Positions 40,538-55,288 are shown, counted from the stretch's first letter. The stretch is DNA of 64,000 nucleotides from Treponema sp. OMZ 838 (GCF_000775995.1 NZ_CP009227.1:1902296-1966295), one strand, 5' to 3'. The notes: generated by a model from the letters alone, not told the origin. Translations and numbers: made by a program.

Positions 40538-42269
40538 AGTTATTAGAAAGTTTTTTGCGTTCTGCGGTGAAGAAAACCGCCGGAAATTTATCACTTCCAT
40601 TCGGCTCAATGTTATCCAGGCGCTGTTTGAGGCGCTAAAGATTCCGGCGATTGCAGTGATGATTCGGGCGCTGATGAACGGAACGGTAGACACAAACGAT
40701 ATCCTGCTCTCGTTAGGGATTATGCTGATCAGCATTGCCGGATCGGGATTGCTAAAATCAAAGGCTGTTATCTTGCAGACCGAAGGGGGCTATGACACTT
40801 GTGCGAAAAAACGAGTGGAGATTGCGGAGCATCTGCGGTATCTTCCGATGGGATACTTTAACGCCAACAGCCTCGGGCAGATTACGTCTATCACAACTAA
40901 TATAATGGAAAGCCTTGAAAATATTGCAACCCGTGTGGTAATGCTTGTCTGCGACGGTCTGCTTACAACTTCGCTTATTGTCATCATGTTGTTTTTCTTC
41001 GATTGGAGAATCGCCTGTGTACTGCTCTGCGGTTTTTCGCTGTTTCTTTTTGCAAACAGCCGTCTCCGGATTGCTTCCGAAAAGGTGTCGGGAAAAAAGA
41101 TACGCGCAGATGAAAGACTCGTAGAAAAGGTTCTGGAATACCTGCAAGGAATGACCGAGGTTAAGGCTTACCGGTTGACGGGAGTTAAGAGCAAGGAATT
41201 AAATGAGGCTATCTCGGAAAACAGTAAGATCAATATCGACATGGAAATGACACTGGTGCCGCGCATAGCATTGCAGAGTTTTATCGCCAAGCTTACCGGT
41301 GCGGCAATGGTAGCTTTTTCATGCGTATTTTATTGTGCCGGAAGTATGGACGCGCTGAATGCTGTTGTCATGGTAATCTCCTCATTTATCATCTATACCA
41401 GTCTGGAAACGGCAGGACAATACTCGTCACTGCTGCGCGTAGTTGATATGAGTGTTGACCGGGCGCAGGAAATTCTGAACACGCCGCAGATGGATATATC
41501 CGGAGAAAATATTACACCGGCAGTGCGTGATATTACTGCGCAGGATATAGCATTTTCGTATGAGAAGCGAAAGATCATCGACGGGATTTCATTGCATATT
41601 CCTGAAAAGACCACGACGGCGATTGTCGGACCTTCCGGCGGAGGAAAAACCACCTTAGTAAATCTGCTTGCACGGTTCTGGGATGTAGACGGGGGAACCG
41701 TTATGCTGGGCGGCCGGAATGTGAAAGATTACGATATGGATTCCTTGATGGCGAATTTCAGTTTTGTGTTCCAATCGGTCTATTTATTCCACGACACCAT
41801 CGCCAACAATATCCGCTTTGGTCAGCCCGGCGCTCCGATGGCGGATGTGATCGCTGCGGCAAAAAAAGCCTGCTGCCATGACTTTATCTCAAGCCTTCCC
41901 CAAGGATACGATACGGTTGTCGGTGAAGGCGGCGCAAGCCTTTCCGGCGGCGAAAAGCAGCGCATCTCTATTGCCCGCGCCATGATGAAAAACGCACCGG
42001 TCATCTTTTTGGATGAGGCAACCGCCAACGTTGATCCCGAAAATGAAAACGAACTGATGCACGCCGTCCAAGCGCTTACCGCCGAAAAGACCGTCATCAT
42101 GATAGCCCACCGGCTGAAAACCGTTGAGAGAGCCGATCAAATCATCGTCGTAGACCACGGCAAGATTGTACAGCAGGGCACACATGCCGAACTGATGGAG
42201 CAGGACGGCATTTACCGAAACTTTATCGGCGAGCGTCGCGAAGCTGCAAGTTGGAAGGTACATAAATAA
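40530..42269 (+). CDS. ABC exporter, fused permease/ATPase subunit (heterodimer partner 2)
   Basis: NBD motifs GPSGGGKTT, LSGGEKQRISIARA, VIFLDEAT. 8-nt overlap with the partner gene. Confidence 0.9.
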   Translation: MLKVIRKFFAFCGEENRRKFITSIRLNVIQALFEALKIPAIAVMIRALMNGTVDTNDILLSLGIMLISIAGSGLLKSKAVILQTEGGYDTCAKKRVEIAEHLRYLPMGYFNANSLGQITSITTNIMESLENIATRVVMLVCDGLLTTSLIVIMLFFFDWRIACVLLCGFSLFLFANSRLRIASEKVSGKKIRADERLVEKVLEYLQGMTEVKAYRLTGVKSKELNEAISENSKINIDMEMTLVPRIALQSFIAKLTGAAMVAFSCVFYCAGSMDALNAVVMVISSFIIYTSLETAGQYSSLLRVVDMSVDRAQEILNTPQMDISGENITPAVRDITAQDIAFSYEKRKIIDGISLHIPEKTTTAIVGPSGGGKTTLVNLLARFWDVDGGTVMLGGRNVKDYDMDSLMANFSFVFQSVYLFHDTIANNIRFGQPGAPMADVIAAAKKACCHDFISSLPQGYDTVVGEGGASLSGGEKQRISIARAMMKNAPVIFLDEATANVDPENENELMHAVQALTAEKTVIMIAHRLKTVERADQIIVVDHGKIVQQGTHAELMEQDGIYRNFIGERREAASWKVHK

Positions 42270-42601
42270 TTATATGGAGGTTCCCCTCACTGCGTTCGGG
42301 TGGGGGAAAAATCTGACAGTGGAAAAAAGCCTTAAAAATGGTATAATATCGGCAAATATGTAGAGAGAAAACTGTGAAGAAAAAGGTGGTGAGTTCATTT
42401 GCTGAACTCAATAACTGGAACTTAGAAAGCAAAGAAATAAAGCAAGAGGTGTTGTGAGATAATACATATGTGACAAGAATATACAAAATGGCTTGCGAAT
42501 GATATAATTAAATGATATAATTTAAATATAAAAGATGTTGATGGTTTTTTTGTATTGTGGTTAGAAAAACTTATGCAGTTAGAAGGAAAGGAGAATTAAA
42601 G

Positions 42602-44200
42602 ATGATTACAAAGAGCTTCGAAAGAAAATTAGAAAAACTTGGTGCATTTGAAATTAGCTTTGATATGTTGAAATTATCAGAAAAGAATGAGAAACATTTG
42701 AAATTTTTGAATGCAGGAAGAGGAAATCCTAATTGGATTAATACCTTGGGAAGATTAGCTTTTGCAAGACTGATGGAATTTGGCGTGTCAGAATGCAAAA
42801 GAACTCTAGATAAAGGAGATTTAGCTGGATATGTTGACTCCAATGGAATTGAGGAGAGGTACAATGCTTTTTTAAATCGTGACGATGAGGTGGATGTATT
42901 TCTTAAAAAGATCGTGGAGTATAGCGTAGACCATCTAGATTTAGATAAGAAAAGCCTTATTTTGGAGCTTACAAATGGCATTATAGGAAATAATTATCCG
43001 GTTCCTAGCCGTTGTTTGGAGAATACGGAGCACATCATCAATGCATTTCTTCAAAGCATTCTATATGGGAAGGCTAATTTAAGAAAAAATACTAAGGTAT
43101 TTCCAGTAGAAGGCGGTACGGCTGCAATTGTTTATATATTTGATTCCTTAAAGCATAATGGACTACTTAATGATGGAGACCACATTGCAATCAACACACC
43201 GGTATTTACTCCTTATATTCAGATTCCGAGACTATCAAATTTTGATTTAGCAGAGGTCGATCTTCAAGCAAGGGAAGAAAATCAGTGGCATATTCCAGAT
43301 TCTGAATTTGAAAAGCTTTTGGACCCTTCTGTCAAGGCATTTTTCTTAGTGAATCCATCAAATCCGGGTTCTCGTAGTCTTACAGATGAGTCTTTGGAAC
43401 AGTTAAGAAAGGTAGTTGTAAAGCGTCCGGATCTTATTATTATAACAGATGATGTATACGGTACTTTTGTAAATGGATTCCGCACTGTTTATTCCGTTTG
43501 CCCAAGAAACACTATTTTGGTTTATTCGTATTCAAAGCTTTATGGTGTTACAGGATGGAGACTCGGAGTTATAGCAATTAATGAAGATAATGTTTTTGAT
43601 GAACTGATTAAGAAGCTTCCTGAGAAGAAGAAAAAAGAACTAGAAAGCGATTATTCTATCGTTACATTTAATCCTTCGGAAATGAGCTTTGTTGAAAGGA
43701 TATGTGCAGACAGCAGATCTATTGGATTGTATCATACAAGCGGGCTATCTACACCACAGCAGATTATGATGGTTCTTTTTTCTATGACTCATTTGGTTCT
43801 TGAAAATGAAAAGGATCAATACATTGAAGCTTGTAAAGAAATTACAGCGATTCGTTACCACAATTTAATGTCTACATTAGGCTTACCTGAGGATAACAGT
43901 GATTCCAATGCTAAATATTATACACTGATTGACATATATCAACTTGCAGAGACAAATTATGATAAGAACTTCGCAACATGGCTTAGAAATGAATTTGAGG
44001 AAATAGATTTTCTTTTACATCTAGCAAAGGAAGATGGTGTTGTGTTGATGGAAGGAGTTGGTTTTGGAGCAACTCCGGGTACAGTCAGAGTTTCAGAAGC
44101 AAACTTAGCGGACAATGATTATAAGAAAATAGCAAATCGTATCCTGTCCCTTTTGAAGGAGTATTACGAAAAGTATGCAAAAGAGAAAAAGGATAAATAG
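42602..44200 (+). CDS. asdA: aspartate 4-decarboxylase (bifunctional aspartate aminotransferase / aspartate beta-decarboxylase, AsdA)
   Basis: Collinear match to AsdA: LNAGRGNPN, FPVEGGTAAIVYIFDSLKHNGLL, and the PLP-lysine region YSYSKLYGVTGWRLG. About 530 aa from the MITKSF start (RBS AAGGAG). Low-GC sequence. Confidence 0.85.
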   Translation: MITKSFERKLEKLGAFEISFDMLKLSEKNEKHLKFLNAGRGNPNWINTLGRLAFARLMEFGVSECKRTLDKGDLAGYVDSNGIEERYNAFLNRDDEVDVFLKKIVEYSVDHLDLDKKSLILELTNGIIGNNYPVPSRCLENTEHIINAFLQSILYGKANLRKNTKVFPVEGGTAAIVYIFDSLKHNGLLNDGDHIAINTPVFTPYIQIPRLSNFDLAEVDLQAREENQWHIPDSEFEKLLDPSVKAFFLVNPSNPGSRSLTDESLEQLRKVVVKRPDLIIITDDVYGTFVNGFRTVYSVCPRNTILVYSYSKLYGVTGWRLGVIAINEDNVFDELIKKLPEKKKKELESDYSIVTFNPSEMSFVERICADSRSIGLYHTSGLSTPQQIMMVLFSMTHLVLENEKDQYIEACKEITAIRYHNLMSTLGLPEDNSDSNAKYYTLIDIYQLAETNYDKNFATWLRNEFEEIDFLLHLAKEDGVVLMEGVGFGATPGTVRVSEANLADNDYKKIANRILSLLKEYYEKYAKEKKDK

Positions 44201-44217
44201 GATAAGGGGGATTTCAT

Positions 44218-45951
44218 ATGAATATAGGATTAATCTCACATGAAGTGTTGGAAACAGCACAGCATATTACGATAACAGGTTTTTCCGATATAGCCCATTA
44301 TTTGATTGCAAATCCGGTTATTTCTATCTTTATATGTCTTGCACTAGGGTATCTTATTGGAAAGCTAAAAATCAAATCCTTTACTATAGGTGCCACTGTA
44401 GGAACTTTGCTGGTAGGACTTCTCATATCCCTGGTATTTAAGGGGGCGGGAACCTATGAGATTGACGGAACTGTAAAGACAATCTTTTTCTCACTGTTTA
44501 TTTTTGCTATCGGATATGAGGTGGGACCTTCATTTTTTGCAAGTTTAAAAAGCTCCGGCCTTAAGATTATTATCCTATCCCTTTTCTTCGCCGTGGTAGC
44601 TTTTGCAGTTTCGATTGTTTTGTTTAAGGCTTTTGGTATCGGAGCGGGAGAAGCCGGCGGAATTTTGGCCGGTAGCCTTACACAGTCTGCAATCCTGGGA
44701 ACAGCGGATTCCACGATGAAGGGAATGCTTTCAGGCACAGAACTGAAAACAGCGGAAAGTCAGATGGCAATTGCCTATGCGCTTACCTATGTTTTCGGAA
44801 CCGTTGGGGTAGTGGTGTTTTTGAAAAACGGTGCAGCGAAGTTAATTGGTGTAAATCTGACAGATACTGTTAAGAAGAAAATCGATCAAACAAATTTCCA
44901 TGAGTCTTCTTCGGAAAATACTGTTGTTGGAAATATCAAAGCACGTGCATTTTGCATAGAAAATGGTGCAGAATTTATTGGTAAAACAATAGGTTCAGTG
45001 GAAGAGCAGTACGGGGATGATCTTACAATAACGAAAATCATTCGAAAGGGTACACAGGTGAACCTTGCACCGGATGTGCAGCTCCTGGAAGGGGATACGG
45101 TTACGATTATCGGACTTCTTGATGCAGTATTGCATTTTGAAGCTTCTGGCATGGAGGAAACTAATGATTCAGAAGCTCTTAGGCTAGATGTGGTAAAGCA
45201 AGAAATAGTTTTAACTAACAATTTCTCTCTAGATGTTATAAAGAATCTTTCAAAAAATGGAATCGTCATTTCAGAAAGGATGAGAGATAACAATATTCTC
45301 CCTGAAGAGGAGGAGTTAAAGGCTCTTGATCACTTGATATTGGTGGGACCGAAAGCCTTGATTGCGAAGGTTGTAAAGAAACTTGGTTATGTGAAGGATA
45401 CAGGTACCGAGACAGATGTATCCTTCATCAGCATGGGGCTTGTATTCGGTTTATTAATCGGTGCAATCAGCTTCGTAGTATCCGGAATTCCGATTACACT
45501 CGGATCCGGCGGAGGTGCCTTGATTGGAGGGCTTTTATTCGGATATTATCAGGACAAACATTCTAACTATGGACTGATGCCGAAAGCAACACGGTGGTTT
45601 TGCAAGAGTGTGGGACTGAATCTATTTATCGCCATTGTGGGGCTTACATCCGGTGCATCCTTCTTATCCGCCCTGCAATCGATGGGCGTAAAGGTACTTT
45701 TAATCGGTGTTTTGGTAACCATTTTGCCTCATATTGCTTCCGTTTACTTTGGAAGATTTGTGTTAAAGTTGGATGCTGTAGATATCATTGGTGCTCTATG
45801 TGGTGCTGGAACGTGTACAGCAGCACTTAACGGAGTTGTGGAGGAATATGATTCAAGTATTTTTGCTATAGCATATACACCAGGATATGCAATGGGAAAT
45901 ATTTTACTTACAGTCTTAGGTCCTCTTGTAGTAGCAATATGCATACATTAG
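44218..45951 (+). CDS. aspT: aspartate:alanine antiporter AspT-like (AAE transporter family, YidE/YbjL/AspT)
   Basis: Duplicated TM domains around a central soluble region with two TrkA-C-like repeats. Immediately downstream of asdA, as in the Tetragenococcus aspD-aspT operon. Confidence 0.75.
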   Translation: MNIGLISHEVLETAQHITITGFSDIAHYLIANPVISIFICLALGYLIGKLKIKSFTIGATVGTLLVGLLISLVFKGAGTYEIDGTVKTIFFSLFIFAIGYEVGPSFFASLKSSGLKIIILSLFFAVVAFAVSIVLFKAFGIGAGEAGGILAGSLTQSAILGTADSTMKGMLSGTELKTAESQMAIAYALTYVFGTVGVVVFLKNGAAKLIGVNLTDTVKKKIDQTNFHESSSENTVVGNIKARAFCIENGAEFIGKTIGSVEEQYGDDLTITKIIRKGTQVNLAPDVQLLEGDTVTIIGLLDAVLHFEASGMEETNDSEALRLDVVKQEIVLTNNFSLDVIKNLSKNGIVISERMRDNNILPEEEELKALDHLILVGPKALIAKVVKKLGYVKDTGTETDVSFISMGLVFGLLIGAISFVVSGIPITLGSGGGALIGGLLFGYYQDKHSNYGLMPKATRWFCKSVGLNLFIAIVGLTSGASFLSALQSMGVKVLLIGVLVTILPHIASVYFGRFVLKLDAVDIIGALCGAGTCTAALNGVVEEYDSSIFAIAYTPGYAMGNILLTVLGPLVVAICIH

Positions 45952-46136
45952 TTATTTGAGTAGATAAGATAGATAGATTCATACATTTATTTTAAGGAAA
46001 AGTGGTTGTATAATATTTAGCGTTGGTGAGAGAAAAAATCCTCTCCCAACGCTAAATTTTTACAAAAAAATAGGAACACACATCAAATCTCGTGTATAAT
46101 TTAAATCGCACAAAATAAAAAACAAGGAGAAATGAT

Positions 46137-46705
46137 ATGTGTTCTAATGCTAGTATAACAGAAATCTTAGGAATTAACGATAAGAATTTAGTAATTTTAG
46201 GTAACGAAAAAGAAAATATTAAGGAGATAGAATATACAGTCTTAAGGGGAAAGCTTTCATATAGGCCAGCTTGCTGCCCTAAGTGTGGTATAGTCAATGA
46301 AAATTATGACATTATTAGAAATGGGAGTCAGACTGTAAAAATACTTTTTAATAGGGTTAATACAACCCCTTTGATATTGATGGTTAAAAGCAGAGATTTT
46401 TCTGTAAGCATTGCGAGTCAACATTTATGGCTAAAACACCTATCGTAGATAAGGGGTGCTTCATATCGAATGATGTTAAGAGGTCTATAGTTTTAAACCT
46501 ATGTGAGACTAAGTCAATGGACCTAATTGCAAGAGAACACTGTGTATCTCCTACTAATATTGCCAGAATACTCCGTTTAACTGAAGATAGGAGAAGAAAA
46601 AATATTCTATCAATAGATGAATTCAAGTCAGTAAATACAGTTGATGCGTCTATGAGTGTAAATTTAACCGATTTAGAAGAAAGAAAGGTTTCTGATATAA
46701 TGTAA
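46137..46705 (+). pseudogene. ISL3-family transposase, N-terminal portion only, with a frameshift in an A-run near 46375
   Basis: zf-ISL3 motif (CCPKCG). The continuation KQRFFCKHCESTFMAKTP appears in another frame, followed by the HTH region. The DDE domain is absent. Confidence 0.75.
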
Positions 46706-47700
46706 ATCTACCAAACCACATTAAGGAGAAACCTTTCATATGAGTAGTATATCAGAAATATACCGTGTTCGTCAACGGGCAATTGAGTATGCAATAAAAC
46801 ATAATAATAATTCAAAGGCAGCAGTGAAGTATAAGACATCACGTCAGCAGATAAAACGTTGGAGAGACAGATACGACGGCACAGTCCAGTCTCTCCTGCC
46901 AAAAAGCAGAAGACCTAAAAGCCACCCAAACCAGCACACGCAAGAAGAAGTAGGGATGGTTATGAAAAAGTACAGGAAATTTGGCTATGAAGGGCTGGCA
47001 GAAGTTTATGTCAAAGCGAGAAAGGAAGGCTATAGCCGTACATACGATTCAATGTGCAAGATAATAAGGAAAATGAAGGGCAATGCCAAAGAAAAGCCTA
47101 AAAAGCTGCATAAAAGAAAAAAAAAGGTTGAACAGGCGAAGTACCCTGGGGAAAGAGTACAGATAGACATAAAATATGTTCCGGAAGAATGCATACAGTT
47201 TGGTACACGTGACCAGAAGTATTATCAAATAACGGCATTAGATGAATATACAAGAAAAAGAGTGTTAAGGATAGCAGATGAAAAAAGCACCTATCAGACC
47301 GCAAAGTTTCTAGAGAACTTGGAAAGGGAGCAGGGATTTGACATAAAGAAAGTTCAGACAGACAATGGGAAAGAGTTCACAAATTCTGAAAGTGATAAGA
47401 AAACACTGTTTGAGCTGAAACTGGAGGAGAAGGGGATAGAGTACGTGACAACCCGTCCATATTCGCCATGGGAGAATGGAAAAGTGGAAAGAAGCCACAG
47501 GCTTGACAGCAAGTACTATGCAGACAAGAAATTTAAAAGCAAGGAAGAACTGTTAAGGGCAATAAGGAAATACAATACAAGATACAACAACATATCAAGA
47601 AAAGTACTAGGCTTTAAGAGTCCAAATGAAGTGTTAAAAGAGTACAAGCAAAATCAGTAGGTTAAAGATACATTAGGAAAGAAACATTTTTTTTAATATA
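46706..47700 (+). mobile_element. IS481-like insertion sequence that truncates the ISL3 transposase gene
   Basis: The transposase ORF begins 35 nt after the point where the ISL3 reading frame ends. Terminal inverted repeats were not resolved by eye. Confidence 0.5.
46740..47660 (+). CDS. IS481-like (rve/DDE integrase-core) transposase
   Basis: N-terminal HTH; DDE core with VQIDIKYV ... DNGKEFTN ... YSPWENGKVERSHR. Single 306-aa ORF. Confidence 0.75.
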   Translation: MSSISEIYRVRQRAIEYAIKHNNNSKAAVKYKTSRQQIKRWRDRYDGTVQSLLPKSRRPKSHPNQHTQEEVGMVMKKYRKFGYEGLAEVYVKARKEGYSRTYDSMCKIIRKMKGNAKEKPKKLHKRKKKVEQAKYPGERVQIDIKYVPEECIQFGTRDQKYYQITALDEYTRKRVLRIADEKSTYQTAKFLENLEREQGFDIKKVQTDNGKEFTNSESDKKTLFELKLEEKGIEYVTTRPYSPWENGKVERSHRLDSKYYADKKFKSKEELLRAIRKYNTRYNNISRKVLGFKSPNEVLKEYKQNQ

Positions 47701-47851
47701 TTTTTGTAACAAATGTTTGACATCTATACAGAAAGCAAAGAAATAAAGCAAGAGGATTGAATATAAGCACACAGGTTAATTGATATTTAGCTTGAGTAAA
47801 TGGCAAAATGTGGAAAAAGTGATATAATGAGACGGACGAGAAGATTATAAG

Positions 47852-48250
47852 ATGAACAATTATATAAAATTAAATGAAGATAGATGGAATAATGTAAAAA
47901 ATGACTATACTGAGCCATTGACACATGAAGAATTAGAAGAAGTTAGAAATAATCCAATTTCTGTTGCATTAACTGTTGGGAAAAAAGTTCCGAAAGAATG
48001 GTTTGAAAAAGCCAACGGAAAAAAGATATTAGGTTTAGCTTGTGGTGGTGGACAGCAGGGACCGGTTTTTGCTATAAAAGGTTATGATGTAACCATAATG
48101 GATTTTTCTAAATCACAATTACAAAGAGATGATATGGTTGCTAAACGAGAAGGCTTAAAAATCAACACAGTTCAAGGCGATATGACAAAATCATTTCCAT
48201 TTGAAAATGAAACTTTTAATATCCCCATCAACAACCATGCTTTCCAATAA
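47852..48250 (+). pseudogene. class I SAM-dependent methyltransferase, C-terminally truncated fragment
   Basis: Motif I (ILGLACGGGQQGP) and motif II are present, but the ORF ends after 132 aa. Confidence 0.5.
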
Positions 48251-48431
48251 TGAAAAGTTCCTGCAGGTAAAAACAATAAAATTCCTATGGCCACCACGCC
48301 GAGAGAAAACTTTAACAGTGCTTTAAAGCATAAATCTTTTTCCATACAACCTCTTTTATATTCCCCTTCGCTCAGTTCTTTATGAGCTGTATAATTTTTT
48401 CACAATGCCTTTCTGTTGTTTTTACGGAAAC

Positions 48432-49928
48432 TTATCTACGGTTCTGTATATATTCTTTTCTGAGCTTATCGGCAATACCGCTCTTTTGAATATGGTGAAT
48501 AAGATTTGCATGCGGAAACGGTATGGTTTTGATATCTTTATCATATTCTGTAATTTTTCCGGTTTCATTAAAAAGCGGACGCCCTTCTATTTTGCCGAAC
48601 TTAATAAACTGTATCCAGTCCTTTTGAATTGCAATAACGGCAGCCTTATTTTCATCGGTAATGTGTATATTCATGTTATCTATGGTGCCGAAGAAAAATG
48701 CAAGTTCCGCCCCATGATATGAGCCGCGAAGTCCATTATATAGATTAGGAATATAATTCATTCTATATCCGTATACGGGAGATTTTTCTCCGATTTTTTC
48801 CATGAGGAACAGTGCACTTGAGTGAAATACAAGCAACTCCATGATTTGAATTTGTAAGTCTACGATTCCGTTCGCTTCCGGTTTTAGTTCGGATTCAAGA
48901 GAATCTGCAAATTCTCCGTATTTTTTCAACAGAAATTCTTTTAAATGTTCTTTGTTCTTTGTAATTCCAAGGGCTTTGTAGTACATCGGTAATTCAATCA
49001 TGGAAAATTCATCTTTATTTGACCCTATCAGTACCGGCATACAAGGGAATGATCCTCGTTCCAACAGATTCATCGGGTGCTCTGTAAAAAACTTGCCGTC
49101 AATGATATCATTTTGACCTCCTTTTAGTTTCATCAATTTTTTAGCCGACAATTTTTTCAGGTCTTCAAGTCCGTTTAAATGATTTTTTGACAGCATTTTT
49201 TCATATTCATTTTTTGCGAAATCATATTCAGACAGTATCGGGACATTTCCCGCACAAAGCATGAGTTTATGAAACAGATTATTACTCAGCGGATTTAAAT
49301 AATGATACAGGGCTGCGACTGCGCCTCCGCAATGCCCCATAAGTGTAATGTTTGTATTATCTCCGCCGAATGAGTTGATATTATTATGAATCCAAGTTAA
49401 AGCTGCTTGCTGATCAAGGTAGGAAAGCGACCCTCTTACTTCTCCTTTTTCAAAAACAGGCATATAGCCGAAGTTTCCTATTCGATAAGTAATTGTAACC
49501 GCTACAATACCTTGTTCGGCAATATGCGCCATTGTGTATATCGGAACCGTTCCCGATCCTTCTCCTCCGCCGTGTAAAAATACAAGCACCGGTTTCTTTT
49601 TCGTAAAATTGTCAGGTGCCCATATGTTTACTACAAATGCATTTTCCGTTTGGGTATCTTTTAACGGTTGAAATTCCGGACGCAGCATATGATGTTTCAT
49701 TAAAATATTTAAAAACAGCGGATATTTTCTCTGCGGAAAGCATACTGTCTCCGTTCGGTTAATTACTGTTTCCGGTGTATAGTCTTTTTTATTAAGAATT
49801 TTTGCATATTCAAATCTTTTTCCTTGTGCATAGGGGACGCTCAATATAGAATACACTGTTCTGCCTTCTTCCGTTTTTCCGACTATATCCGCATATACTC
49901 TGCCGATTTCTGTCTGTACTGTTTTCAT
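48432..49928 (-). CDS. type-B carboxylesterase family protein with GHCGG in place of the GESAG nucleophile elbow
   Basis: COesterase family (FLHGGGEGSG oxyanion region; FGGDNTNITLMGHCGGAVAA aligns to FGGDPxNITxFGESAGG). The Cys codon is at 49329-49331. Confidence 0.8.
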   Translation of the reverse strand: MKTVQTEIGRVYADIVGKTEEGRTVYSILSVPYAQGKRFEYAKILNKKDYTPETVINRTETVCFPQRKYPLFLNILMKHHMLRPEFQPLKDTQTENAFVVNIWAPDNFTKKKPVLVFLHGGGEGSGTVPIYTMAHIAEQGIVAVTITYRIGNFGYMPVFEKGEVRGSLSYLDQQAALTWIHNNINSFGGDNTNITLMGHCGGAVAALYHYLNPLSNNLFHKLMLCAGNVPILSEYDFAKNEYEKMLSKNHLNGLEDLKKLSAKKLMKLKGGQNDIIDGKFFTEHPMNLLERGSFPCMPVLIGSNKDEFSMIELPMYYKALGITKNKEHLKEFLLKKYGEFADSLESELKPEANGIVDLQIQIMELLVFHSSALFLMEKIGEKSPVYGYRMNYIPNLYNGLRGSYHGAELAFFFGTIDNMNIHITDENKAAVIAIQKDWIQFIKFGKIEGRPLFNETGKITEYDKDIKTIPFPHANLIHHIQKSGIADKLRKEYIQNRR

Positions 49929-50171
49929 TTTATATCTCCGTTATGCCAATTTTTATCTCTTCTTATTTATAAATAGTATATCGTTTTTAAGATACATTTT
50001 CTATCAGTCGGCAGATCAACGTCGGATTGCCTATATTCTCAATACTTATATTTTTTTGTATAATCGCATAGTGTCAATTAAAAGCGATTTTTTCAGGGGA
50101 TTCCGAATAAGTGATAGGGCATCTCGAAAACCTGACCTTGAGCGAATTTGTTCGAGACTTAAAGAAACGAT

Positions 50172-50588
50172 ATGAGAGAATCGAATCAATTAAAAGAATG
50201 TCAGAAACTTTGGGCAGTACATAAGTATCTCGTTCTCAGCAAGTCCGGCTCTATTTATAACGAGATTCGCGAGTATTTAAAGCGGGAGAATGCACAAGTG
50301 CAGCATGTGTTGACTCTCATTGATCAGGCGTGCACTTTACCGGAGGATCGAGGACAAGTCTGCAACGCGTTTCAGCATATCTGGGGATATTTTAAGAAGC
50401 AGGCTACTCAGGATGAAAAGGCGGAGTTTATGTATTGTTTGGAGCAATATCGCAGCGGTCAGGCGGAACAGGAAATTTTGTTGGGCGCTGTGCGCAAGCT
50501 CCTTGCAGTCTACCCTAACAAGTATTTGCAGCAATCGCATCTATTATTCGGAGAACAAGATGAGACTGTGGCATCAAGATATGATTAG
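50172..50588 (+). CDS. DUF1722 (YbgA-like) protein
   Basis: About 138 aa; the QHIWGYFKK region resembles the YbgA/DUF1722 core. That family is usually adjacent to UV-repair genes. Confidence 0.45.
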   Translation: MRESNQLKECQKLWAVHKYLVLSKSGSIYNEIREYLKRENAQVQHVLTLIDQACTLPEDRGQVCNAFQHIWGYFKKQATQDEKAEFMYCLEQYRSGQAEQEILLGAVRKLLAVYPNKYLQQSHLLFGEQDETVASRYD

Positions 50589-50925
50589 CAAACTCCCGCG
50601 TCAACAGCTGTTGGGACAACATAGGGAGTGTTGTGCCTTGCGCGGAAACGGCTGGGGCAGGCAGCATGCAACTGTCAATTATGTTTTTCGTTATTCACCC
50701 TATCTGCTTTATTGTTATCACCGACTCATTATGGCAGAGATGAATCGGCGAGGCTACAGGGTCAGTCCGGAGTGGTTGGACAAAGACTATCGCGGCAGGA
50801 GATGTCCGTCATATAACAATTTAGCGGTCATCGAAGTACTCAACCCCATATATACTGAACATGATGATTGCTATTATCGTGAGTGTCTCAAGAATTTGGA
50901 AACCAAGGGAATTCATTTGGATTAA
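50560..50925 (+). CDS. pyrimidine-dimer DNA glycosylase-like protein (T4 endonuclease V / DenV family, TIGR02328-like)
   Basis: N-terminal MRLWHQDMISKLPRQQLLGQHRECCALRG matches my memory of bacterial DenV-like proteins. It is the 3' portion of the listed ORF 50320..50925. Confidence 0.5.
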   Translation: MRLWHQDMISKLPRQQLLGQHRECCALRGNGWGRQHATVNYVFRYSPYLLYCYHRLIMAEMNRRGYRVSPEWLDKDYRGRRCPSYNNLAVIEVLNPIYTEHDDCYYRECLKNLETKGIHLD

Positions 50926-50944
50926 GTAGGGTAACATCAAATGT

Positions 50945-51295
50945 ATGGAACTTTGTATGGATAAAAGCGAAAAGCTCATTAAATATATACTGGGGGACTC
51001 CATAGCCCTAGACATCACTCTTTGTGTATGCTTTGTTATCGGTTTTTCACTGGGACTTGGAAGTGTGGAGATCGGCTTTTTTATGGTAGGTCTTGTTTTC
51101 CGGTACGGACTAACCATAGCCATCATCAGCATTTTATTGAAGTTTGCTGTTATTGCTTTGAGTTTTCAAAGAGATACAAATATAAAAAGAAAGTCATGGT
51201 CCATCGCTTTTCTGTCTCTGGTAAGGCTGTTGATTATAGGCGGAGTAATCTGGGGAATTTACTTTATCGGTAAGGTGATGACTGCCGTAGGATAA
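50945..51295 (+). CDS. small hypothetical membrane protein
   Basis: 116 aa, three hydrophobic helices. Confidence 0.3.
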   Translation: MELCMDKSEKLIKYILGDSIALDITLCVCFVIGFSLGLGSVEIGFFMVGLVFRYGLTIAIISILLKFAVIALSFQRDTNIKRKSWSIAFLSLVRLLIIGGVIWGIYFIGKVMTAVG

Positions 51296-51365
51296 CCCAT
51301 CGCTAACCCTTTTAATATCTTTTTTTGCTCATCTCTTACAGCAACAAAGCTCTTCGAACAAAAAT

Positions 51366-51983
51366 CTATTGAATGAATCTTCTAAACCAAGTATCCAAAA
51401 AATTCATTTGTTCTTCAGTATGAAACCAATGTTCTCCATTATCAAAAACCGTTAGGTCCGCATGTATTTTATTCGCAAAATTCGTCATTGTCTCTAAAGA
51501 AGTCATATCGTCTTTTTTACCGTAAAGAATGCCGGTAGGAATGTTCCATGCTATAGGATTTTTTCTAACAAAAGAAAGATATTCCCACGATAAAGGTTCG
51601 CCGAACGGAATGTTGATGATTTTTTTCAGTCTAAGTTTTTCTTCAGATATCTTTGCCCGTTTCATCATGTGTAAAATGATATTTTCCATATCGACAATGG
51701 GGGAAACAAACAGTGCTTTTTTGATCGGTTTTTCCGATAAGGACAACATAGAAAAATATGCCCCTATACTGTTTGCAATTAATAGGATTTCATTATAATT
51801 CGGAATAATGGAATCAAAATAGTTTTGAAATTCTTCATTGGCCTGCCAAGGTAATTCCGATTCATAATTAAAACCTAAAAGCTCATAATCATCATTAAAA
51901 AACTTTTTATAGTAAAGCGCTTCATCGGCAGAACCGCCTTTTCCGTGTATATATACAACCGCATTTTTCATACAAAACTCCAC
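51366..51983 (-). CDS. alpha/beta-hydrolase fold esterase
   Basis: Nucleophile elbow IANSIGAY and a C-terminal D ... H (FDNGEHWFH). Confidence 0.65.
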   Translation of the reverse strand: MEFCMKNAVVYIHGKGGSADEALYYKKFFNDDYELLGFNYESELPWQANEEFQNYFDSIIPNYNEILLIANSIGAYFSMLSLSEKPIKKALFVSPIVDMENIILHMMKRAKISEEKLRLKKIINIPFGEPLSWEYLSFVRKNPIAWNIPTGILYGKKDDMTSLETMTNFANKIHADLTVFDNGEHWFHTEEQMNFLDTWFRRFIQ

Positions 51984-52059
51984 CGCATTCTAAACGAAAT
52001 ATGGATAGTGCTCAATACTTGTGATATAATGCGGGCAGCTAAAGATCGGCCGGGGAGTT

Positions 52060-52257
52060 ATGATTATGGTAAGAGAAGCGGTTAAAGAAGATTTGTCTGA
52101 ATTATTGAATCTATATCTGTTTTTACACGAAAAAGATATTCCGGAAAATTCAAGTCGTCTGGAAAATACATGGAACACAATTATTGAAGATGAGAATCAT
52201 CATATCATCGTCAATGAAATAAACGGTAAAATCGAAATCCGAGGAGATGATTTTTAG
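52060..52257 (+). pseudogene. N-terminal fragment of a GNAT acetyltransferase (65 aa)
   Basis: MIMVREAVKEDLSELLNLY-type GNAT N-terminus; ends before the acetyl-CoA binding motif. Confidence 0.4.
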
Positions 52258-52260
52258 ACG

Positions 52261-52950
52261 ATGGAAACAGTGATTATACACGGACAAAATCATAAGGGAT
52301 CAACATATCATATTGCGAACAATCTGGCATTGAAAGTCGGGGGAAACATAAAAGAGTTTTTTTTGCCGAAAGATTTCGGTGAGTTTTGTACCGGTTGTAC
52401 AAAGTGTTTTTTAGAATCGGAAAAACAATGTCCGCATTTCGACAGACTTAACCCTATTACCGAGACGATAGACAAAGCCGATTTGATTATTCTTGCAAGT
52501 CCCGTATATGTAATGCACCCAACGGGTTCTATGAAAGCATTTTTAGATCATTACGGATATCGTTGGATGGTACACCGGCCGGAGGAAACAATGTTTTCGA
52601 AGCAGGGTGTGTGTATTTCCACTGCCGCGGGTGGGGGTATGAAATCTGCAAATAAAGATATGGCAGACAGTTTGTTTTTTTGGGGAGTTGCTGAAATTTA
52701 CACATACGGCAAAGCTGTTCAGGCTGTAAAATGGCAAGATGTAAGTGAAAAAGATAAAAAATCCATAGATAAAGCATTAAGCTCTCTTGCAAAAAAAATT
52801 ACCGATAAGTACGGTAAAGCGAAGCCCGGAATAAAAACAAAACTGATGTTCAATATCATACGCCTCTTACAAAATAAAATCCGGAATCGGGCAGATACGG
52901 ATTATTGGCAGGAAAAGGGATGGCGGGATAAAAACCGTCCGTGGAAATAA
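52261..52950 (+). CDS. flavodoxin-like fold NAD(P)H-dependent FMN reductase family protein
   Basis: IIHGQNHKGST ... LIILASPVY pattern of the FMN_red / iron-sulfur flavoprotein family. Confidence 0.65.
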   Translation: METVIIHGQNHKGSTYHIANNLALKVGGNIKEFFLPKDFGEFCTGCTKCFLESEKQCPHFDRLNPITETIDKADLIILASPVYVMHPTGSMKAFLDHYGYRWMVHRPEETMFSKQGVCISTAAGGGMKSANKDMADSLFFWGVAEIYTYGKAVQAVKWQDVSEKDKKSIDKALSSLAKKITDKYGKAKPGIKTKLMFNIIRLLQNKIRNRADTDYWQEKGWRDKNRPWK

Positions 52951-53069
52951 TGATAAACTTTGGAAATATTCTATAGGGCACCTTTGAAAACCAACCGGGT
53001 TTTTAGAGATGCCGCATAGTAACTTGAAAGTTTAGTTGATAAATTCAACCATCCACCCTTTTCCTGAAC

Positions 53070-54011
53070 TCAGCTTTCCAATATTCTCCCTATATGGCGT
53101 TTTTCAAAGAACATATCTTTGTTTGTAAAAACGATAATTACAGCGGCAACTGTAACACAGATTGTTTCGACGCATTTTGTCGTTTGGGTCATCGCAATCT
53201 TTTCCTGCATGAAGTTTACAAAAAGGTGAAAAATAATACTTGCAAGCATGCTTCGGTTATTTTTCACGTAAACCCATGTTGTTATAAAACCGAACGGAAT
53301 AACGGAAATAAAAAAGTTGAACATATACAAAACATTTATTTCACGTATTCCAAAATGGTAGGTGCCTGGGATGAAAAACAGCGGTAGGTGCCATAATGCC
53401 CATACAAAGCCGAATATAATCGATTCTGTGAACCAACTGCAATATTGAGCGATTGAGTCTTCACCGTAACCGCGCCAACCTACTTCTTCCAAAACCGAAG
53501 CAAGCAAAATCGTTAAAAATGCGGAAGTGACTCCTGCTCCGGTAAAAGAAAAACCCTCCGTGACGGAAAACTGATTTAAAGACTGCCCCCACAACGTTGA
53601 AAGTAAAATTGAGCAGCTGACTATCAGTGCAAAAACAATTACGGCAGCAAAAATGTATTTCAGTCTTAATTTATAAAACCTGAAGATCTTGCGTTTAAAG
53701 TCCGCTTTTAGTTCTTTACTTTTTGAACCAAACACGGTGATGAGTGCAATTATTGCCGGTGAAAGGAGTCCGAGCAGCATTGTGAGTGTACAAATAAAAC
53801 CTTCTTTAAAAATAAGCGCGCAAAACCAAAAGCCCCATGTTGCTAGAATGGTCGTAACATAAAACCTTACGGGTCTGTATATATAGGGTTTGTTTATGCA
53901 ATCTACCGATATGGTTATTGCCTGACGATTTTGACTGCATTTTTCTGTAAGTTCTTCCTGCACAAGATTCTTTTGCTGTCGCAAGGTTTCTGATTTTTTC
54001 GAAAAGTTCAT
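53070..54011 (-). CDS. CPBP family intramembrane metalloprotease (CAAX protease / Abi)
   Basis: Motifs EExxxR (LEEVGWRGY), FxxxH (FVWALWHLPLFF) and HLFVN. Confidence 0.8.
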   Translation of the reverse strand: MNFSKKSETLRQQKNLVQEELTEKCSQNRQAITISVDCINKPYIYRPVRFYVTTILATWGFWFCALIFKEGFICTLTMLLGLLSPAIIALITVFGSKSKELKADFKRKIFRFYKLRLKYIFAAVIVFALIVSCSILLSTLWGQSLNQFSVTEGFSFTGAGVTSAFLTILLASVLEEVGWRGYGEDSIAQYCSWFTESIIFGFVWALWHLPLFFIPGTYHFGIREINVLYMFNFFISVIPFGFITTWVYVKNNRSMLASIIFHLFVNFMQEKIAMTQTTKCVETICVTVAAVIIVFTNKDMFFEKRHIGRILES

Positions 54012-54144
54012 AATCCATCTCCTTCACGGATGTTCTTCGGCATCCGTAATGTTAGACGGATAATAACCTTGCAGCTGCAATTATGAAAGAAATGATACAT
54101 TACAATCCGAGAAATTTTCGCTACTTATAGTAGCAGGGGATGTC

Positions 54145-54930
54145 TCAAGACATCAATTTGTTATAAATGGCTTCATCCTGTTTGCTGAATACATTAAACA
54201 CGATTTTCATTGTGCTGTTGTTTTTTGCTTTCCAGTCTTCAACCGTTGAGACGGCAATCTCCGCAGCTTTTTGAGCAGGGAACCGGAACACACCGGTGGA
54301 AATACAGCAAAAGGCAACAGATCCTACGCCGTTTTCCGCTGCGAGGTTCAGACAGGACGTGTAGCAGTTTGCAAGCAGCGTGCAGTCGCGGTCGGTAAGT
54401 TGACCGCTGATAATCGGCCCTACGGTATGCAGCACATACTTACATGGCAGGTTAAACGCAGGCGTAATCTTTGCTGTTCCGATCGGCTCTTTGTGTCCTT
54501 GTTTTTGCATAATGTCGGCACACACGGCGCGCAGCTGAATACCTGCGAAGGTGTGGATGCAGTTGTCGATACATGCATGGCAGGGTTGCCAGCATCCGGT
54601 CATACCGCTGTTCGCCGCGTTCACAATCGCATCGACCTTAAGCGTTGTAATGTCACCCCGCCACACATACCAATCCCCGTTACCCCGTCCGGTAGCCGGT
54701 TTTAAATTGGCAAGGTCGGTAATGCCGCGCTGCCGGATCGCTTCCTGCAAATAGCTGTCCTGTATGCGCAAGAATTCTTCGCTTGTATGCTGCGGCGGAC
54801 GAACGTTCATCAGAGAACGGAGCAGGTTCTTCTGTTCATCCTCATCATTCGGCATCTGCACATCGCGATAGTTGGGATTTTCCCTTAAAAGATATTCGAT
54901 TAAAAAAATACGCCGTTCCTTTTGTGTCAT
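54145..54930 (-). CDS. macro-domain protein (ADP-ribose / protein-ADP-ribose hydrolase-like) with an N-terminal extension and a Cys-rich motif
   Basis: VDAIVNAANSGMTGC ... HTVGP ... macro-domain core with C..C.C.H between strands; about 80-aa N-terminal helical extension. Confidence 0.75.
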   Translation of the reverse strand: MTQKERRIFLIEYLLRENPNYRDVQMPNDEDEQKNLLRSLMNVRPPQHTSEEFLRIQDSYLQEAIRQRGITDLANLKPATGRGNGDWYVWRGDITTLKVDAIVNAANSGMTGCWQPCHACIDNCIHTFAGIQLRAVCADIMQKQGHKEPIGTAKITPAFNLPCKYVLHTVGPIISGQLTDRDCTLLANCYTSCLNLAAENGVGSVAFCCISTGVFRFPAQKAAEIAVSTVEDWKAKNNSTMKIVFNVFSKQDEAIYNKLMS

Positions 54931-54982
54931 CTTTCCCTTCCATAAAATGCATCAATATTTTGGAAATATACGACTCTCATTC

Positions 54983-55117
54983 TACCGCTGCTTACTATCG
55001 CCCCAGCCGTGCCAATGCCCGTGTATCGGGATCTACATCGTATTGTATTTCTTCATAGAGATTATCGTCAATACAGCGGCGTTCAATCATCTTTTCAATG
55101 ATGGTGTTGCGGCAGAG
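54983..55117. repeat. about 137-bp direct repeat, copy 1: orphan duplicate of the 3' end of gene 56461..57084
   Basis: About 96% identical to 56451-56589. Confidence 0.7.
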
Positions 55118-55209
55118 GGAATATTTGAAAAAGGAATTCAACATACAAAGGATTTCGTGTTATTGGCGGCTTTTGAGCTTACCATCACTGATCACCCCTG
55201 AATCTTCGA

Positions 55210-55288
55210 TTGACAAAGAACGGCAAATAATTATAATCACGCTAATAAAACCTTGTTTTGTAAATCCGATTTTACAAAACGAGGTTTT
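55210..55288 (+). promoter_or_regulatory. consensus sigma70 promoter TTGACA-N16-TATAAT, immediately followed by a 17-bp hairpin
   Basis: TTGACA at 55210, TATAAT at 55232, hairpin AAACCTTGTTTTGTAAA-TCCGAT-TTTACAAAACGAGGTTT at 55247-55288, then a roughly 130-nt leader before 55422. Confidence 0.5.

What the first reader, a model, noticed from the sequence alone, without database searches (positions are those of the whole stretch)
42602..45951. Aspartate 4-decarboxylase plus aspartate:alanine antiporter (asdA-aspT) energy module in a spirochete
In Tetragenococcus, AsdA/AspD plus AspT form a proton-motive decarboxylation-phosphorylation module. Here both genes are low-GC and sit next to transposases, which indicates lateral acquisition. 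The module could give this organism aspartate-driven energy conservation and alanine release in an amino-acid-rich niche.
Basis: partly seen in the sequence, partly recalled or inferred. Interest (0 to 1): 0.6.

Follow-up and report, generated by a model that had tools for sequence, protein, structure and literature searches.

The report
Aspartate-decarboxylation operon carried inside a transposon
The two genes are a real, intact aspartate decarboxylase and aspartate:alanine antiporter pair in an oral Treponema; they sit as cargo inside a 5.3-kb jumping element that has placed the same operon, nearly identical to that of oral Firmicutes, into several Treponema species and a Leptotrichia.

Summary
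Window 42602-44200 encodes a 532-aa aspartate 4-decarboxylase (AsdA) with its PLP lysine in SYSK. Window 44218-45951 encodes a 577-aa aspartate:alanine antiporter (AspT) that keeps the aspartate-binding residues seen in the solved Tetragenococcus AspT structure. The host is oral Treponema sp. OMZ 838 or a near-identical strain. NCBI already gives both proteins these names, so the annotation is not new.

What is new is the vehicle. The operon is not just near transposases. It lies between the left inverted repeat and the transposase gene of an IS481/IS1202-type insertion sequence. The result is a 5,281-bp transposon (42450-47730) flanked by a perfect 25-26-bp target duplication.

The same unit, with different 26-bp duplications, occurs in T. 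maltophilum, T. socranskii, a Leptotrichia and other oral contigs. A cargo-free 1,092-bp copy occurs in Leptotrichia wadei. The cargo is 98-100% identical in DNA to a 3.5-kb cassette in Eubacterium infirmum, E. yurii, Peptostreptococcus stomatis and Catonella. In this window the aspT part is a recombinant of Oribacterium type.

Generation of proton-motive force is inferred from homology, not shown. I class this as a new member of known kinds, of moderate interest.

The parts
42425..42449 (.). Left copy of the target-site duplication, GAAAGCAAAGAAATAAAGCAAGAGG. The exact repeat is 26 bp (42424-42449) if the shared A is counted.
   Evidence: Perfect direct repeat with 47731-47755. Zero matches are expected by chance. 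The shared unit starts immediately after it.
42450..42488 (+). Left terminal inverted repeat (IRL) of the IS481/IS1202-type element, TGTTGTGAGATAATACATATGTGAC...
   Evidence: 97.5% identical to the first 40 bp of the cargo-free 1,092-bp IS in Leptotrichia wadei (L044 2899-2938). There it is directly followed by the sequence that resumes in the window at 46677. It occurs once in the window.
42480..42523 (+). Promoter-like region for the operon. It holds TATACA-17-TATAAT and TTGCGA-17-TATAAT, both with a TG-extended -10. The second was created by a 13-bp tandem duplication (42498-42510 / 42511-42523) that the Firmicutes cassettes lack. The first -35 lies in IRL sequence.
   Evidence: Consensus scan, sequence and alignment A1 showing the duplication only in the Treponema transposon copies. 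These are consensus matches only; transcription was not tested.
42602..44200 (+). asdA: PLP-dependent L-aspartate 4(beta)-decarboxylase, 532 aa, PLP lysine K312 in SYSK.
   Evidence: NF006755 732.7 bits and TIGR03801 606.7 bits, both above cutoff. Full-length matches to PDB 3F6T (E 8e-189) and to ASD structures 2ZY2 and 3FDD (E 1e-133 / 1e-130), with the lysine aligned. dN/dS is 0.08-0.11 against divergent alleles.
44218..45951 (+). aspT: aspartate:alanine antiporter (AAEx family), 577 aa. The RBS GGGGGA lies 7 nt upstream, and the gap from asdA is 17 bp.
   Evidence: TIGR03802 548.8 bits against a cutoff of 546.95; Pfam finds two Asp-Al_Ex halves plus TrkA_C. Full-length match to Tetragenococcus AspT structure 8Y1X, E 1e-105. 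Binding and gating residues are conserved. dN/dS is 0.10-0.13.
46003..46676 (+). Remnant of an ISL3-family IS: outer end plus the frameshifted N-terminal ~190 aa of its transposase (ORFs 46137-46448 and 46427-46705). It was captured together with the operon. It includes a strong terminator-like hairpin followed by a U-run at 46015-46066.
   Evidence: Pfam HTH_Tnp_ISL3 and NF033550 hits. The unbroken 193-aa version in L039 matches ISL3 profile positions 3-155 of 370. The segment is contiguous with the cassette in Catonella L006 and E. yurii L003. Hairpin -29 kcal/mol, z = -6.5.
46677..47730 (+). Remainder of the IS481/IS1202-type element: transposase gene 46740-47660 (306 aa; HTH_28 + rve DDE domain) and right inverted repeat ending ...TTTGACATCTATACA.
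   Evidence: 96% identical to L. wadei solo IS L044 2937-3994. Best family is NF033577 IS481 at 179 bits (cutoff 224); Pfam finds rve and HTH_28. 100% identical to the T. maltophilum copy.
47731..47755 (.). Right copy of the target-site duplication.
47852..48250 (+). Truncated SAM-dependent methyltransferase gene (132 of 254 codons). The transposon inserted upstream of this gene. A later deletion (junction about 48217-48222) removed its 3' part and most of the neighbouring ICMT-family gene, of which only the first ~43 codons remain at 48217-48345 (-).
   Evidence: Related Treponema contigs L039 and L040 carry the same insertion and the same duplication but a full 254-aa methyltransferase and an intact ICMT gene. 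Backbone homology to strains without the transposon stops at 42301 and resumes at 48217.

Best explanation
The flagged genes are an intact two-gene operon, asdA-aspT.

Likely function (by homology to the Tetragenococcus halophilus asp operon):
- AspT imports L-aspartate(1-) in electrogenic exchange for L-alanine(0).
- AsdA, a PLP enzyme, removes the beta-carboxyl of aspartate to give alanine plus CO2, consuming a cytoplasmic proton.
- Each turn therefore builds membrane potential and a pH gradient, i.e. proton-motive force, which the cell can use for ATP synthesis, transport or its flagellar motors.

How the operon is carried:
- It is cargo of a 5,281-bp transposon (window 42450-47730). This is an IS481/IS1202-type insertion sequence with TGT...ACA ends and a 306-aa DDE transposase.
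- A 4.2-kb piece of oral-Firmicutes DNA (promoter, asdA, aspT and the outer 0.67 kb of an ISL3 element) became lodged between the IS's left inverted repeat and its transposase gene.
- The transposase moves the whole unit and duplicates 25-26 bp of target.

Shown here: gene identity and key residues; transposon boundaries; target duplications at several independent sites; presence in at least three Treponema species and a Leptotrichia; near-identity of the cargo to Firmicutes cassettes; purifying selection on both genes.

Inferred, not shown: enzymatic and transport activity, expression in Treponema, proton-motive-force generation, and current transposition activity.
For: Identity:
- NCBIfam equivalog scores are above cutoff for both proteins.
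- AsdA aligns end to end with solved aspartate beta-decarboxylases. The PLP lysine and the NAGRGNPN, NYPVP, VNPSNP, TDDVYG and GWRLG blocks are conserved.
- AspT aligns end to end with the solved T. halophilus AspT. It keeps T130, Q131, S132, Y163, Y167, L431, F434, G439 and T496 (S498 becomes T), the residues reported to bind or gate aspartate (PMC12462496).
- The same asdA-then-aspT order occurs on Lactobacillales plasmids and in all close relatives.

Selection: both ORFs are intact in every copy seen, and dN/dS is about 0.1.

Transposon:
- The window, T. maltophilum L037 and L043 share exactly 42450-47730 and nothing beyond.
- The L. wadei solo IS equals window 42450-42488 joined to 46677-47730.
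- Target duplications of 25-26 bp, different at each site, flank the unit in the window, L037, L043, Leptotrichia L055, T. socranskii L054+L033, and the solo IS.
- Closely related Treponema genomes lack the unit at this site.

Origin: the cargo in T. maltophilum is 98-100% identical in DNA to E. infirmum, E. yurii and Catonella cassettes.
Against: - No biochemical or expression data exist for any of these oral copies.
- AspT passes its NCBIfam cutoff by only 1.9 bits.
- The AAEx family also contains succinate and glutamate exporters, so substrate specificity rests on conserved binding residues and on linkage to asdA.
- The transposase scores below the IS481 model's trusted cutoff (179 against 224 bits).
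- No empty target site was recovered for this insertion.
- The T. maltophilum duplication has 3 mismatches in 26, which a very recent insertion would not show.
- Whether Treponema can convert the extra proton-motive force into ATP was not examined, because the ATPase genes lie outside the window.
Confidence: 0.8

Rival explanations
1. The operon is an ordinary genomic island or a composite transposon. On this view the ISL3 and IS481 genes are unrelated neighbours, and the island arrived by homologous recombination or between two IS copies.
For: Two different transposase genes lie downstream. In Catonella L006 the cassette is bracketed by direct copies of the ISL3 outer end, so ISL3 may move the cassette among Firmicutes.
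Against: In Treponema and Leptotrichia the shared DNA always starts at the same base of the IS481-type IRL and ends at the same base of its IRR. Each site has its own 25-26-bp duplication. The solo IS shows the cargo is an internal insertion. There is only one copy of the IS in the window, and the ISL3 piece is a truncated, frameshifted remnant.
Confidence: 0.05
2. The module works as predicted chemically, but its selected role is not energy conservation. It might serve cytoplasmic pH buffering, CO2/bicarbonate or alanine supply, or alanine cross-feeding in plaque. Alternatively, AspT exchanges other dicarboxylates or amino acids.
For: Decarboxylation-antiport cycles consume protons and also act in acid resistance (established for amino-acid decarboxylase/antiporter systems; my own knowledge). 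AAEx members transport succinate and glutamate as well (PMC12462496). NCBI names AsdA as bifunctional transaminase/decarboxylase.
Against: The aspartate-binding residues of AspT are conserved. Tight operon linkage to asdA is maintained across phyla. The hosts are largely asaccharolytic amino-acid fermenters, for which extra proton-motive force is valuable (inference). This rival overlaps with the main reading rather than excluding it.
Confidence: 0.2
3. In Treponema the operon is a silent or useless passenger that hitch-hikes on an active IS. Its Firmicutes promoter and codon usage would not work in a spirochete.
For: GC of the cargo is 36-40% against 44.6% for the genome (PMC4276824). No expression data exist. 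The ISL3 remnant beside it is clearly junk.
Against: Both ORFs are intact in all copies from three Treponema species and Leptotrichia. The aspT allele in this window was replaced by recombination yet stayed intact. dN/dS is about 0.1, although most of that divergence probably predates entry into Treponema. Promoter-like sites with extended -10 boxes are present, and one was duplicated only in the transposon copies.
Confidence: 0.1

Closest known systems
Tetragenococcus halophilus asp operon (aspD/asdA-aspT) on plasmid pD1, with the solved AspT structures (PDB 8Y1X, 8XW5; PMC12462496)
   Same: Same gene order and two-gene architecture. AspT aligns over its full length (E 1e-105) with the aspartate-binding and gating residues conserved. 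Asp(1-)/Ala(0) exchange coupled to decarboxylation is the presumed mechanism.
   Different: Identity in the N-terminal 199 residues compared is about 49%. The window protein has a 24-aa N-terminal extension and a longer central loop. R76 of T. halophilus is E here, as it is in the Lactobacillales plasmid AspTs. The vehicle is a transposon in a chromosome, not a plasmid. The host is a spirochete.
Solved aspartate beta-decarboxylases (2ZY2/2ZY3 Pseudomonas, 3FDD Alcaligenes) and the uncharacterised 3F6T protein
   Same: Full-length homology, the PLP lysine and the fold-type I aminotransferase motifs.
   Different: The 3F6T protein matches more strongly (E 8e-189) than the characterised proteobacterial enzymes (E about 1e-130). 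Oligomeric state and kinetics are unknown.
asdA-aspT pairs on Lactobacillales plasmids (L. plantarum Lp16F, E. faecium NM213 plasmid)
   Same: Same operon, also on mobile DNA; both are annotated identically by NCBI.
   Different: About 48% AspT identity. DNA similarity is limited to short 71-73% stretches. They are plasmid-borne, next to IS1216/Xer genes, and not inside an IS.
Cargo-carrying IS481-family transposons such as TnRErm46 of Rhodococcus equi (PMC6794481)
   Same: A single IS481-type transposase at one end moves a multi-kb unit with passenger genes lying between the IS's own inverted repeats. Insertions are flanked by direct repeats.
   Different: TnRErm46 carries a resistance gene and makes 6-bp repeats. 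This element carries a bioenergetic operon and makes 25-26-bp repeats.
IS1202 subgroup of the IS1202 family and IS481EU (bioRxiv 10.1101/2022.12.17.520857; PMC10045372)
   Same: TGT...ACA termini and very long target duplications: 24-29 bp for IS1202 and about 25 bp for some IS481EU. Some members carry passenger genes. IS1202 nests within IS481 in the published phylogeny.
   Different: The transposase here is only 306 aa in a 1.09-kb IS. It scores far better on the IS481 model (1e-52) than on the ISNCY_2 model (6e-11). The IS1202 hallmarks (extra DD pair, Q after the E) were not tested.

Membership tests
Aspartate 4-decarboxylase (AsdA; TIGR03801 / NF006755) | Score above the curated equivalog cutoffs over the full length | tested here: met
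   732.7 against 321 bits and 606.7 against 435.1 bits, covering residues 5-530 of 532.
Aspartate 4-decarboxylase (AsdA; TIGR03801 / NF006755) | PLP-binding lysine in the S-(Y/F)-S-K motif, plus the fold-type I aminotransferase core | tested here: met
   K312 aligns with the lysine of SFSK in 2ZY2 and 3FDD. Pfam Aminotran_1_2 scores 96.7 bits.
Aspartate 4-decarboxylase (AsdA; TIGR03801 / NF006755) | Catalyses L-Asp to L-Ala + CO2 | not testable with these tools
   Needs an enzyme assay.
Aspartate:alanine antiporter AspT (AAEx family, TC 2.A.81; TIGR03802) | Score above the curated equivalog cutoff | tested here: met
   548.8 against 546.95 bits, a margin of only 1.9 bits.
Aspartate:alanine antiporter AspT (AAEx family, TC 2.A.81; TIGR03802) | Duplicated Asp-Al_Ex membrane halves with a central soluble TrkA_C-type domain | tested here: met
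   Pfam PF06826 in two stretches and PF02080 at residues 247-308.
Aspartate:alanine antiporter AspT (AAEx family, TC 2.A.81; TIGR03802) | Aspartate-binding residues of the solved structure (T130, S132, Y167, L431, T496, S498) and gating residues F66, F69, F434, G439 | tested here: met
   All identical except S498 to T. M70 to I is also seen (alignment; residue list from PMC12462496).
Aspartate:alanine antiporter AspT (AAEx family, TC 2.A.81; TIGR03802) | Genetic linkage to asdA in one operon | tested here: met
   17-bp gap on the same strand. Linkage is conserved in L001-L008, L037 and the Lactobacillales plasmids.
Aspartate:alanine antiporter AspT (AAEx family, TC 2.A.81; TIGR03802) | Electrogenic Asp/Ala exchange | not testable with these tools
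   Needs a proteoliposome assay.
IS481 family insertion sequence | Transposase above the NF033577 cutoff | tested here: not met
   179.3 bits against a cutoff of 224. It is still by far the best family (next is IS3 at 58 bits).
IS481 family insertion sequence | Single DDE (rve) transposase with N-terminal HTH, and TGT...ACA termini with imperfect inverted repeats | tested here: met
   Pfam HTH_28, rve and rve_3. Ends are TGTTGTGAG... and ...CTATACA, with a subterminal 51-bp inverted match at 76%.
IS481 family insertion sequence | Target duplication of 2-15 bp (mostly 6), as listed for the family in PMC10045372 | tested here: not met
   25-26 bp at six sites. This length fits the IS1202 subgroup (24-29 bp) and some IS481EU.
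IS1202 family (IS1202 subgroup) | 27-28 (24-29) bp direct repeats and TGT-type ends | tested here: inconclusive
   The repeats are 25-26 bp and the ends are TGT. However, the transposase matches the ISNCY_2 model only weakly (42 bits) and is about 150 aa shorter than the 1.5-kb IS described. The signature DD pair and Q residue were not examined.
Cargo-carrying IS (transporter IS / unit transposon) | Passenger genes lie between the IS's own two inverted repeats, and the whole unit recurs at different sites with its own target duplications | tested here: met
   Solo IS compared with loaded IS. Identical 5,281-5,282-bp units occur at five or more sites with distinct duplications.
Composite transposon | Two copies of the same IS bracket the cargo | tested here: not met
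   There is only one IRL and one transposase copy in the window.

The most novel reading that the evidence does not exclude
This may be a currently active, cross-phylum 'bioenergetic transposon'. A 1.1-kb IS481/IS1202-type element has captured a complete proton-motive decarboxylation cycle from oral Firmicutes. It is now spreading that cycle among periodontal Treponema species and Leptotrichia. The cargo alleles are still being exchanged by recombination within the oral community, and the operon gives carriers a measurable energetic or motility advantage on aspartate in the gingival crevice. I found no description of this element, or of asdA-aspT in Treponema, in the searchable literature.
Probability: 0.45. 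Interest if true: 0.6.

Novelty: new member of a known kind. Interest (0 to 1): 0.45.

Why it matters
Decarboxylation-antiport cycles are one of the simplest ways for a fermenter to make proton-motive force. Here a complete cycle fits into 3.4 kb and rides inside a single small IS. The structure explains how near-identical copies appear in Bacillota, Spirochaetota and Fusobacteriota of the same niche.

It offers a concrete, testable case of transposon-mediated spread of an energy-metabolism trait, rather than a resistance trait, among periodontitis-associated bacteria. It also supplies natural carrier and non-carrier Treponema strains at the same locus for physiological comparison.

For transposon biology it adds a short IS481-like transposase that makes 25-26-bp target duplications and tolerates a 4.2-kb insertion between IRL and its own gene.

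Tried and rejected
1. Plasmid origin. A distant blastn search of the cassette against PLSDB found only short 71-73% matches to Lactobacillales asdA/aspT plasmids and no close plasmid copy.
2. Riboswitch or leader RNA. A permissive Rfam scan of 42200-48300 found nothing.
3. Empty target site. An exact junction pattern found no hit in metagenome contigs. The duplication is therefore supported by recurrence at other sites, not by an empty site for this one.
4. The idea that the Firmicutes cassette's upstream end is itself a decayed IRL of a related IS. Local alignment scores were only about 2 sd above shuffles and within the shuffle maximum, so I rejected it. The left cargo junction is better described as about 14 bp of A/T-rich microhomology at 42475-42488.
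5. Concern that AspT lacks R76, which is implicated in transport in T. halophilus. The position is E in all other asdA-linked AspTs examined, so it is not diagnostic.
6. GC content as evidence of foreignness. It is weak here because Treponema backbone genes from 48 to 57 kb are equally AT-rich.
7. Literature searches for the accession CP051194, for AsdA in Treponema, and for open papers listing ASD active-site residues returned nothing useful.
8. One look-up of the ABC-transporter protein returned no encoding contig, although the protein is in the collection.
Full report
**1. Observation**

The two ORFs exist exactly where stated. asdA runs 42602-44200. The ORF lister starts it at a GTG at 42557, but the ATG at 42602 is preceded by GGAGA and is the start used in all database entries. 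aspT runs 44218-45951, 17 bp downstream on the same strand and behind a GGGGGA ribosome-binding site.

GC is 0.36-0.41 here against 0.45-0.49 in the ABC-transporter genes just upstream. Low GC continues to about 57 kb through genes that other Treponema strains share, so composition alone is a weak marker.

**2. Host**

Exact-sequence look-ups place both proteins, the neighbouring ABC transporter and a FlgE at 60009-61400 in 'unclassified Treponema' / Treponema sp. OMZ 838. The window is 99.6% identical to chromosome CP051194.1. OMZ 838 is an oral phylogroup-1 treponeme from a necrotising gingivitis lesion. Its genome is 2.71 Mb at 44.58% GC, and it was recently proposed as T. sinense (PMC4276824, PMC12781046). 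NCBI already names the two proteins 'bifunctional aspartate transaminase/aspartate 4-decarboxylase' and 'aspartate-alanine antiporter'. The annotation itself is therefore not new.

**3. Gene identity**

AsdA scores 732.7 bits on NF006755 (cutoff 321) and 606.7 on TIGR03801 (cutoff 435). Generic aminotransferase models reach at most 86 bits. It aligns end to end with the solved aspartate beta-decarboxylases 2ZY2 and 3FDD, and even better with 3F6T. K312 of SYSK lies opposite the lysine of SFSK, and the NAGRGNPN, NYPVP, VNPSNP, TDDVYG, GWRLG and HT(S/A)GLSTPQQ blocks are conserved. That this lysine forms the PLP Schiff base in ASD is from my own knowledge of those structures.

AspT scores 548.8 on TIGR03802, just over its 546.95 cutoff. 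It has two Asp-Al_Ex halves around a TrkA_C domain. It aligns over its whole length with the solved T. halophilus AspT (8Y1X, E 1e-105).

I mapped the residues that the structural paper reports as contacting or gating aspartate (PMC12462496):
- T130, Q131, S132, Y163, Y167, L431, F434, G439, T496, F66 and F69 are identical.
- S498 is T, and M70 is I.
- R76 of T. halophilus is E here, but it is also E in Oribacterium, T. maltophilum and two Lactobacillales plasmid AspTs. It is therefore not a family requirement.

**4. Lateral origin**

A scan of species-representative genomes found AsdA at 97-99% amino-acid identity in [Eubacterium] infirmum, Peptostreptococcus stomatis, [E.] yurii, Streptococcus suis, a Catonella MAG and a Treponema MAG. 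Oribacterium is at 90%. The DNA shared with the window is only about 3.5 kb (window ~42475-46040), sitting in unrelated chromosomal contexts. The Firmicutes copies are 98.3-99.4% identical to one another. asdA and aspT are adjacent in all of them.

**5. The vehicle**

Closely related Treponema genomes (CP051197, CP051147) have the same TetR-ABC-ABC genes and the same carboxylesterase, but no asdA-aspT between them. Backbone homology stops at 42301 and resumes at 48217.

A perfect 26-bp direct repeat lies at 42424-42449 and 47730-47755; none is expected by chance.

Look-ups of the exact IS481-like transposase (46740-47660) returned contigs in which it is always preceded by asdA-aspT and the ISL3 remnant but followed by different genes. 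One of these is T. maltophilum ATCC 51939, where the unit sits between a yebC-ruvCAB cluster and a helicase. Alignment shows the shared DNA is exactly window 42450-47730, i.e. the stretch between the repeats.

**6. Structure of the element**

A 90%-cluster relative of the transposase occurs in Leptotrichia wadei as a cargo-free 1,092-bp IS. Its first 40 bp equal window 42450-42488, and its remainder equals 46677-47730. The 4,188 bp from 42489 to 46676 are therefore an insertion inside the IS, between its left inverted repeat and its transposase gene. That insertion holds the promoter, asdA, aspT and 0.67 kb of an ISL3 element.

With ends read as TGT...ACA, every copy is flanked by its own duplication:

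| Copy | Duplication |
|---|---|
| Window | GAAAGCAAAGAAATAAAGCAAGAGG (25 bp; 26 with a shared A) |
| L043 | TTACAGTTTACGGCATTGCTGAACCT (26 bp) |
| L055 | AAAGCAAAAGAATATAGCAAATAAAA (26 bp) |
| L054 (left) + L033 (right) | TACATACAGACCCGTAAGATTTTATG (26 bp) |
| T. maltophilum L037 | ATTG(T/C)ACAAGGAAG(A/T)GCAATTC(C/T)AAC (26 bp, 3 mismatches) |
| L. wadei solo IS | AAATTTAAAAAAGTATATTATCAAG (25 bp) |

Flanking genes assign L054 to T. socranskii, L055 to Leptotrichia and L042 to T. maltophilum-like DNA. The unit has thus entered at least three Treponema species and a member of the Fusobacteriota.

**7. Family of the IS**

The transposase has HTH_28 plus rve domains. It matches the IS481 model best, at 179 bits and below the 224 cutoff. 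It matches the ISNCY_2 model weakly.

Published surveys give 2-15 bp duplications for IS481 and 24-29 bp for the IS1202 subgroup. They place IS1202 inside IS481 phylogenetically, with TGT ends in both (PMC10045372; bioRxiv 10.1101/2022.12.17.520857). IS481-family transposons with cargo are known, for example TnRErm46 (PMC6794481). I therefore file the element as an IS481/IS1202-type cargo-carrying IS. I do not assign a subgroup.

**8. History of this copy**

Contigs L039 and L040 carry the same insertion and the same duplication. They also have a full 254-aa SAM methyltransferase and an intact ICMT gene downstream. In the window a deletion (junction about 48217-48222) has removed the 3' part of the first and most of the second.

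Sliding-window identity shows the window and T. maltophilum units are 99-100% identical except across 43940-45930, where they are 84-95%. In that stretch the window resembles Oribacterium (95-99%), whereas the T. maltophilum cargo is 98-100% identical to E. infirmum, E. yurii and Catonella throughout. The aspT allele in this window was therefore replaced by homologous recombination after capture.

Both genes show dN/dS of about 0.08-0.13 between divergent alleles and are intact in every copy.

**9. Expression signals**

All of these are consensus-level evidence only.
- Two sigma-70-like promoters with TG-extended -10 boxes lie at 42480-42521. The first uses a -35 inside the IRL. The second exists only because of a 13-bp tandem duplication (42498-42523) found in the transposon copies but not in the Firmicutes cassettes.
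- A 17-bp-stem hairpin followed by a U-run lies at 46015-46066 (-29 kcal/mol, z = -6.5), within the ISL3-derived segment.
- No Rfam family matches.

**10. Mechanism and its status**

By homology to the T. halophilus system (summarised in PMC12462496 and PMC9508256), AspT exchanges external Asp(1-) for internal Ala(0), and AsdA decarboxylates Asp to Ala while consuming a proton. The net result is proton-motive force. This is inference. Nothing here measures activity, expression or coupling in Treponema. pH homeostasis or alanine/CO2 supply are overlapping alternatives.

**11. Verdict**

The added value is the precise mobile element and its cross-phylum distribution. Both the metabolic module and cargo-bearing IS481-type transposons are known kinds, so this is a new member rather than a new category. 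I found no paper describing this element or asdA-aspT in Treponema. Interest is moderate.

Noticed in passing
window 51388-51996: A 609-bp single-gene segment (ORF 51366-51983, minus strand, 205 aa, weak alpha/beta-hydrolase hits) is present in the window but absent from CP051194 and several other Treponema contigs. It is bounded by an 8-bp direct repeat, TTCTAAAC. A gene of similar size sits at this position in L039 and L040.
   Followed up: partly
window ~42300-57000 (compare L017-L021, L039): The stretch between the TetR-ABC-ABC genes and the flagellar hook/motor genes is a strain-variable, AT-rich zone. Different Treponema strains carry different sets of small genes here (ICMT and SAM methyltransferases, Rce1-like proteases, acetyltransferases, a MazE/ABC2 set, Macro, FMN reductase).
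   Followed up: partly
L006 9345-9860 and 13403-13924 (Catonella MAG): In Catonella the 3.5-kb cassette is bracketed by direct copies of the outer ~0.3-0.5 kb of the ISL3 element. This suggests a tandem or circular ISL3-associated form that may move the cassette among Firmicutes. The mechanism was not worked out.
   Followed up: partly
L037 5684-5709 and 10992-11017 (T. maltophilum): The 26-bp duplication flanking the T. maltophilum copy has 3 mismatches, although the IS part is 100% identical to the window copy. The target also contains a GAATTG...CAATTC palindrome. This is unexplained; possibilities are later mutation, gene conversion, or insertion into a pre-existing repeat.
   Followed up: no
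L004 9982-13393 (Treponema MAG CALAEM010000089): A Firmicutes-type cassette (98.6% to E. infirmum) has a completely different upstream region starting ~20 bp before the ATG, with no IS481-type IRL. The contig is 36.5% GC, and its flanking proteins carry no organism names in the collection. Either this is a second, independent acquisition route in Treponema or the MAG binning is wrong.
   Followed up: partly
L005 (Streptococcus suis WUSS225) and L014 (Flavobacteriaceae MAG, 3-kb contig): The cassette also appears at 94% DNA identity in a pig-associated Streptococcus suis genome and on a very short contig binned as Flavobacteriaceae. The latter assignment is doubtful.
   Followed up: no
L053 89-829: One metagenomic copy of the loaded transposon lies about 1.2 kb from a ParA-like gene on a 33% GC contig. 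It may therefore also sit on a plasmid, which would give a route between cells.
   Followed up: no
window 58048-63138: Flagellar genes (FlgE at 60009-61400, MotA at 61639-62418, MotB at 62422-63138) lie 12-17 kb downstream. This is relevant only because spirochete motility is a consumer of proton-motive force.
   Followed up: no
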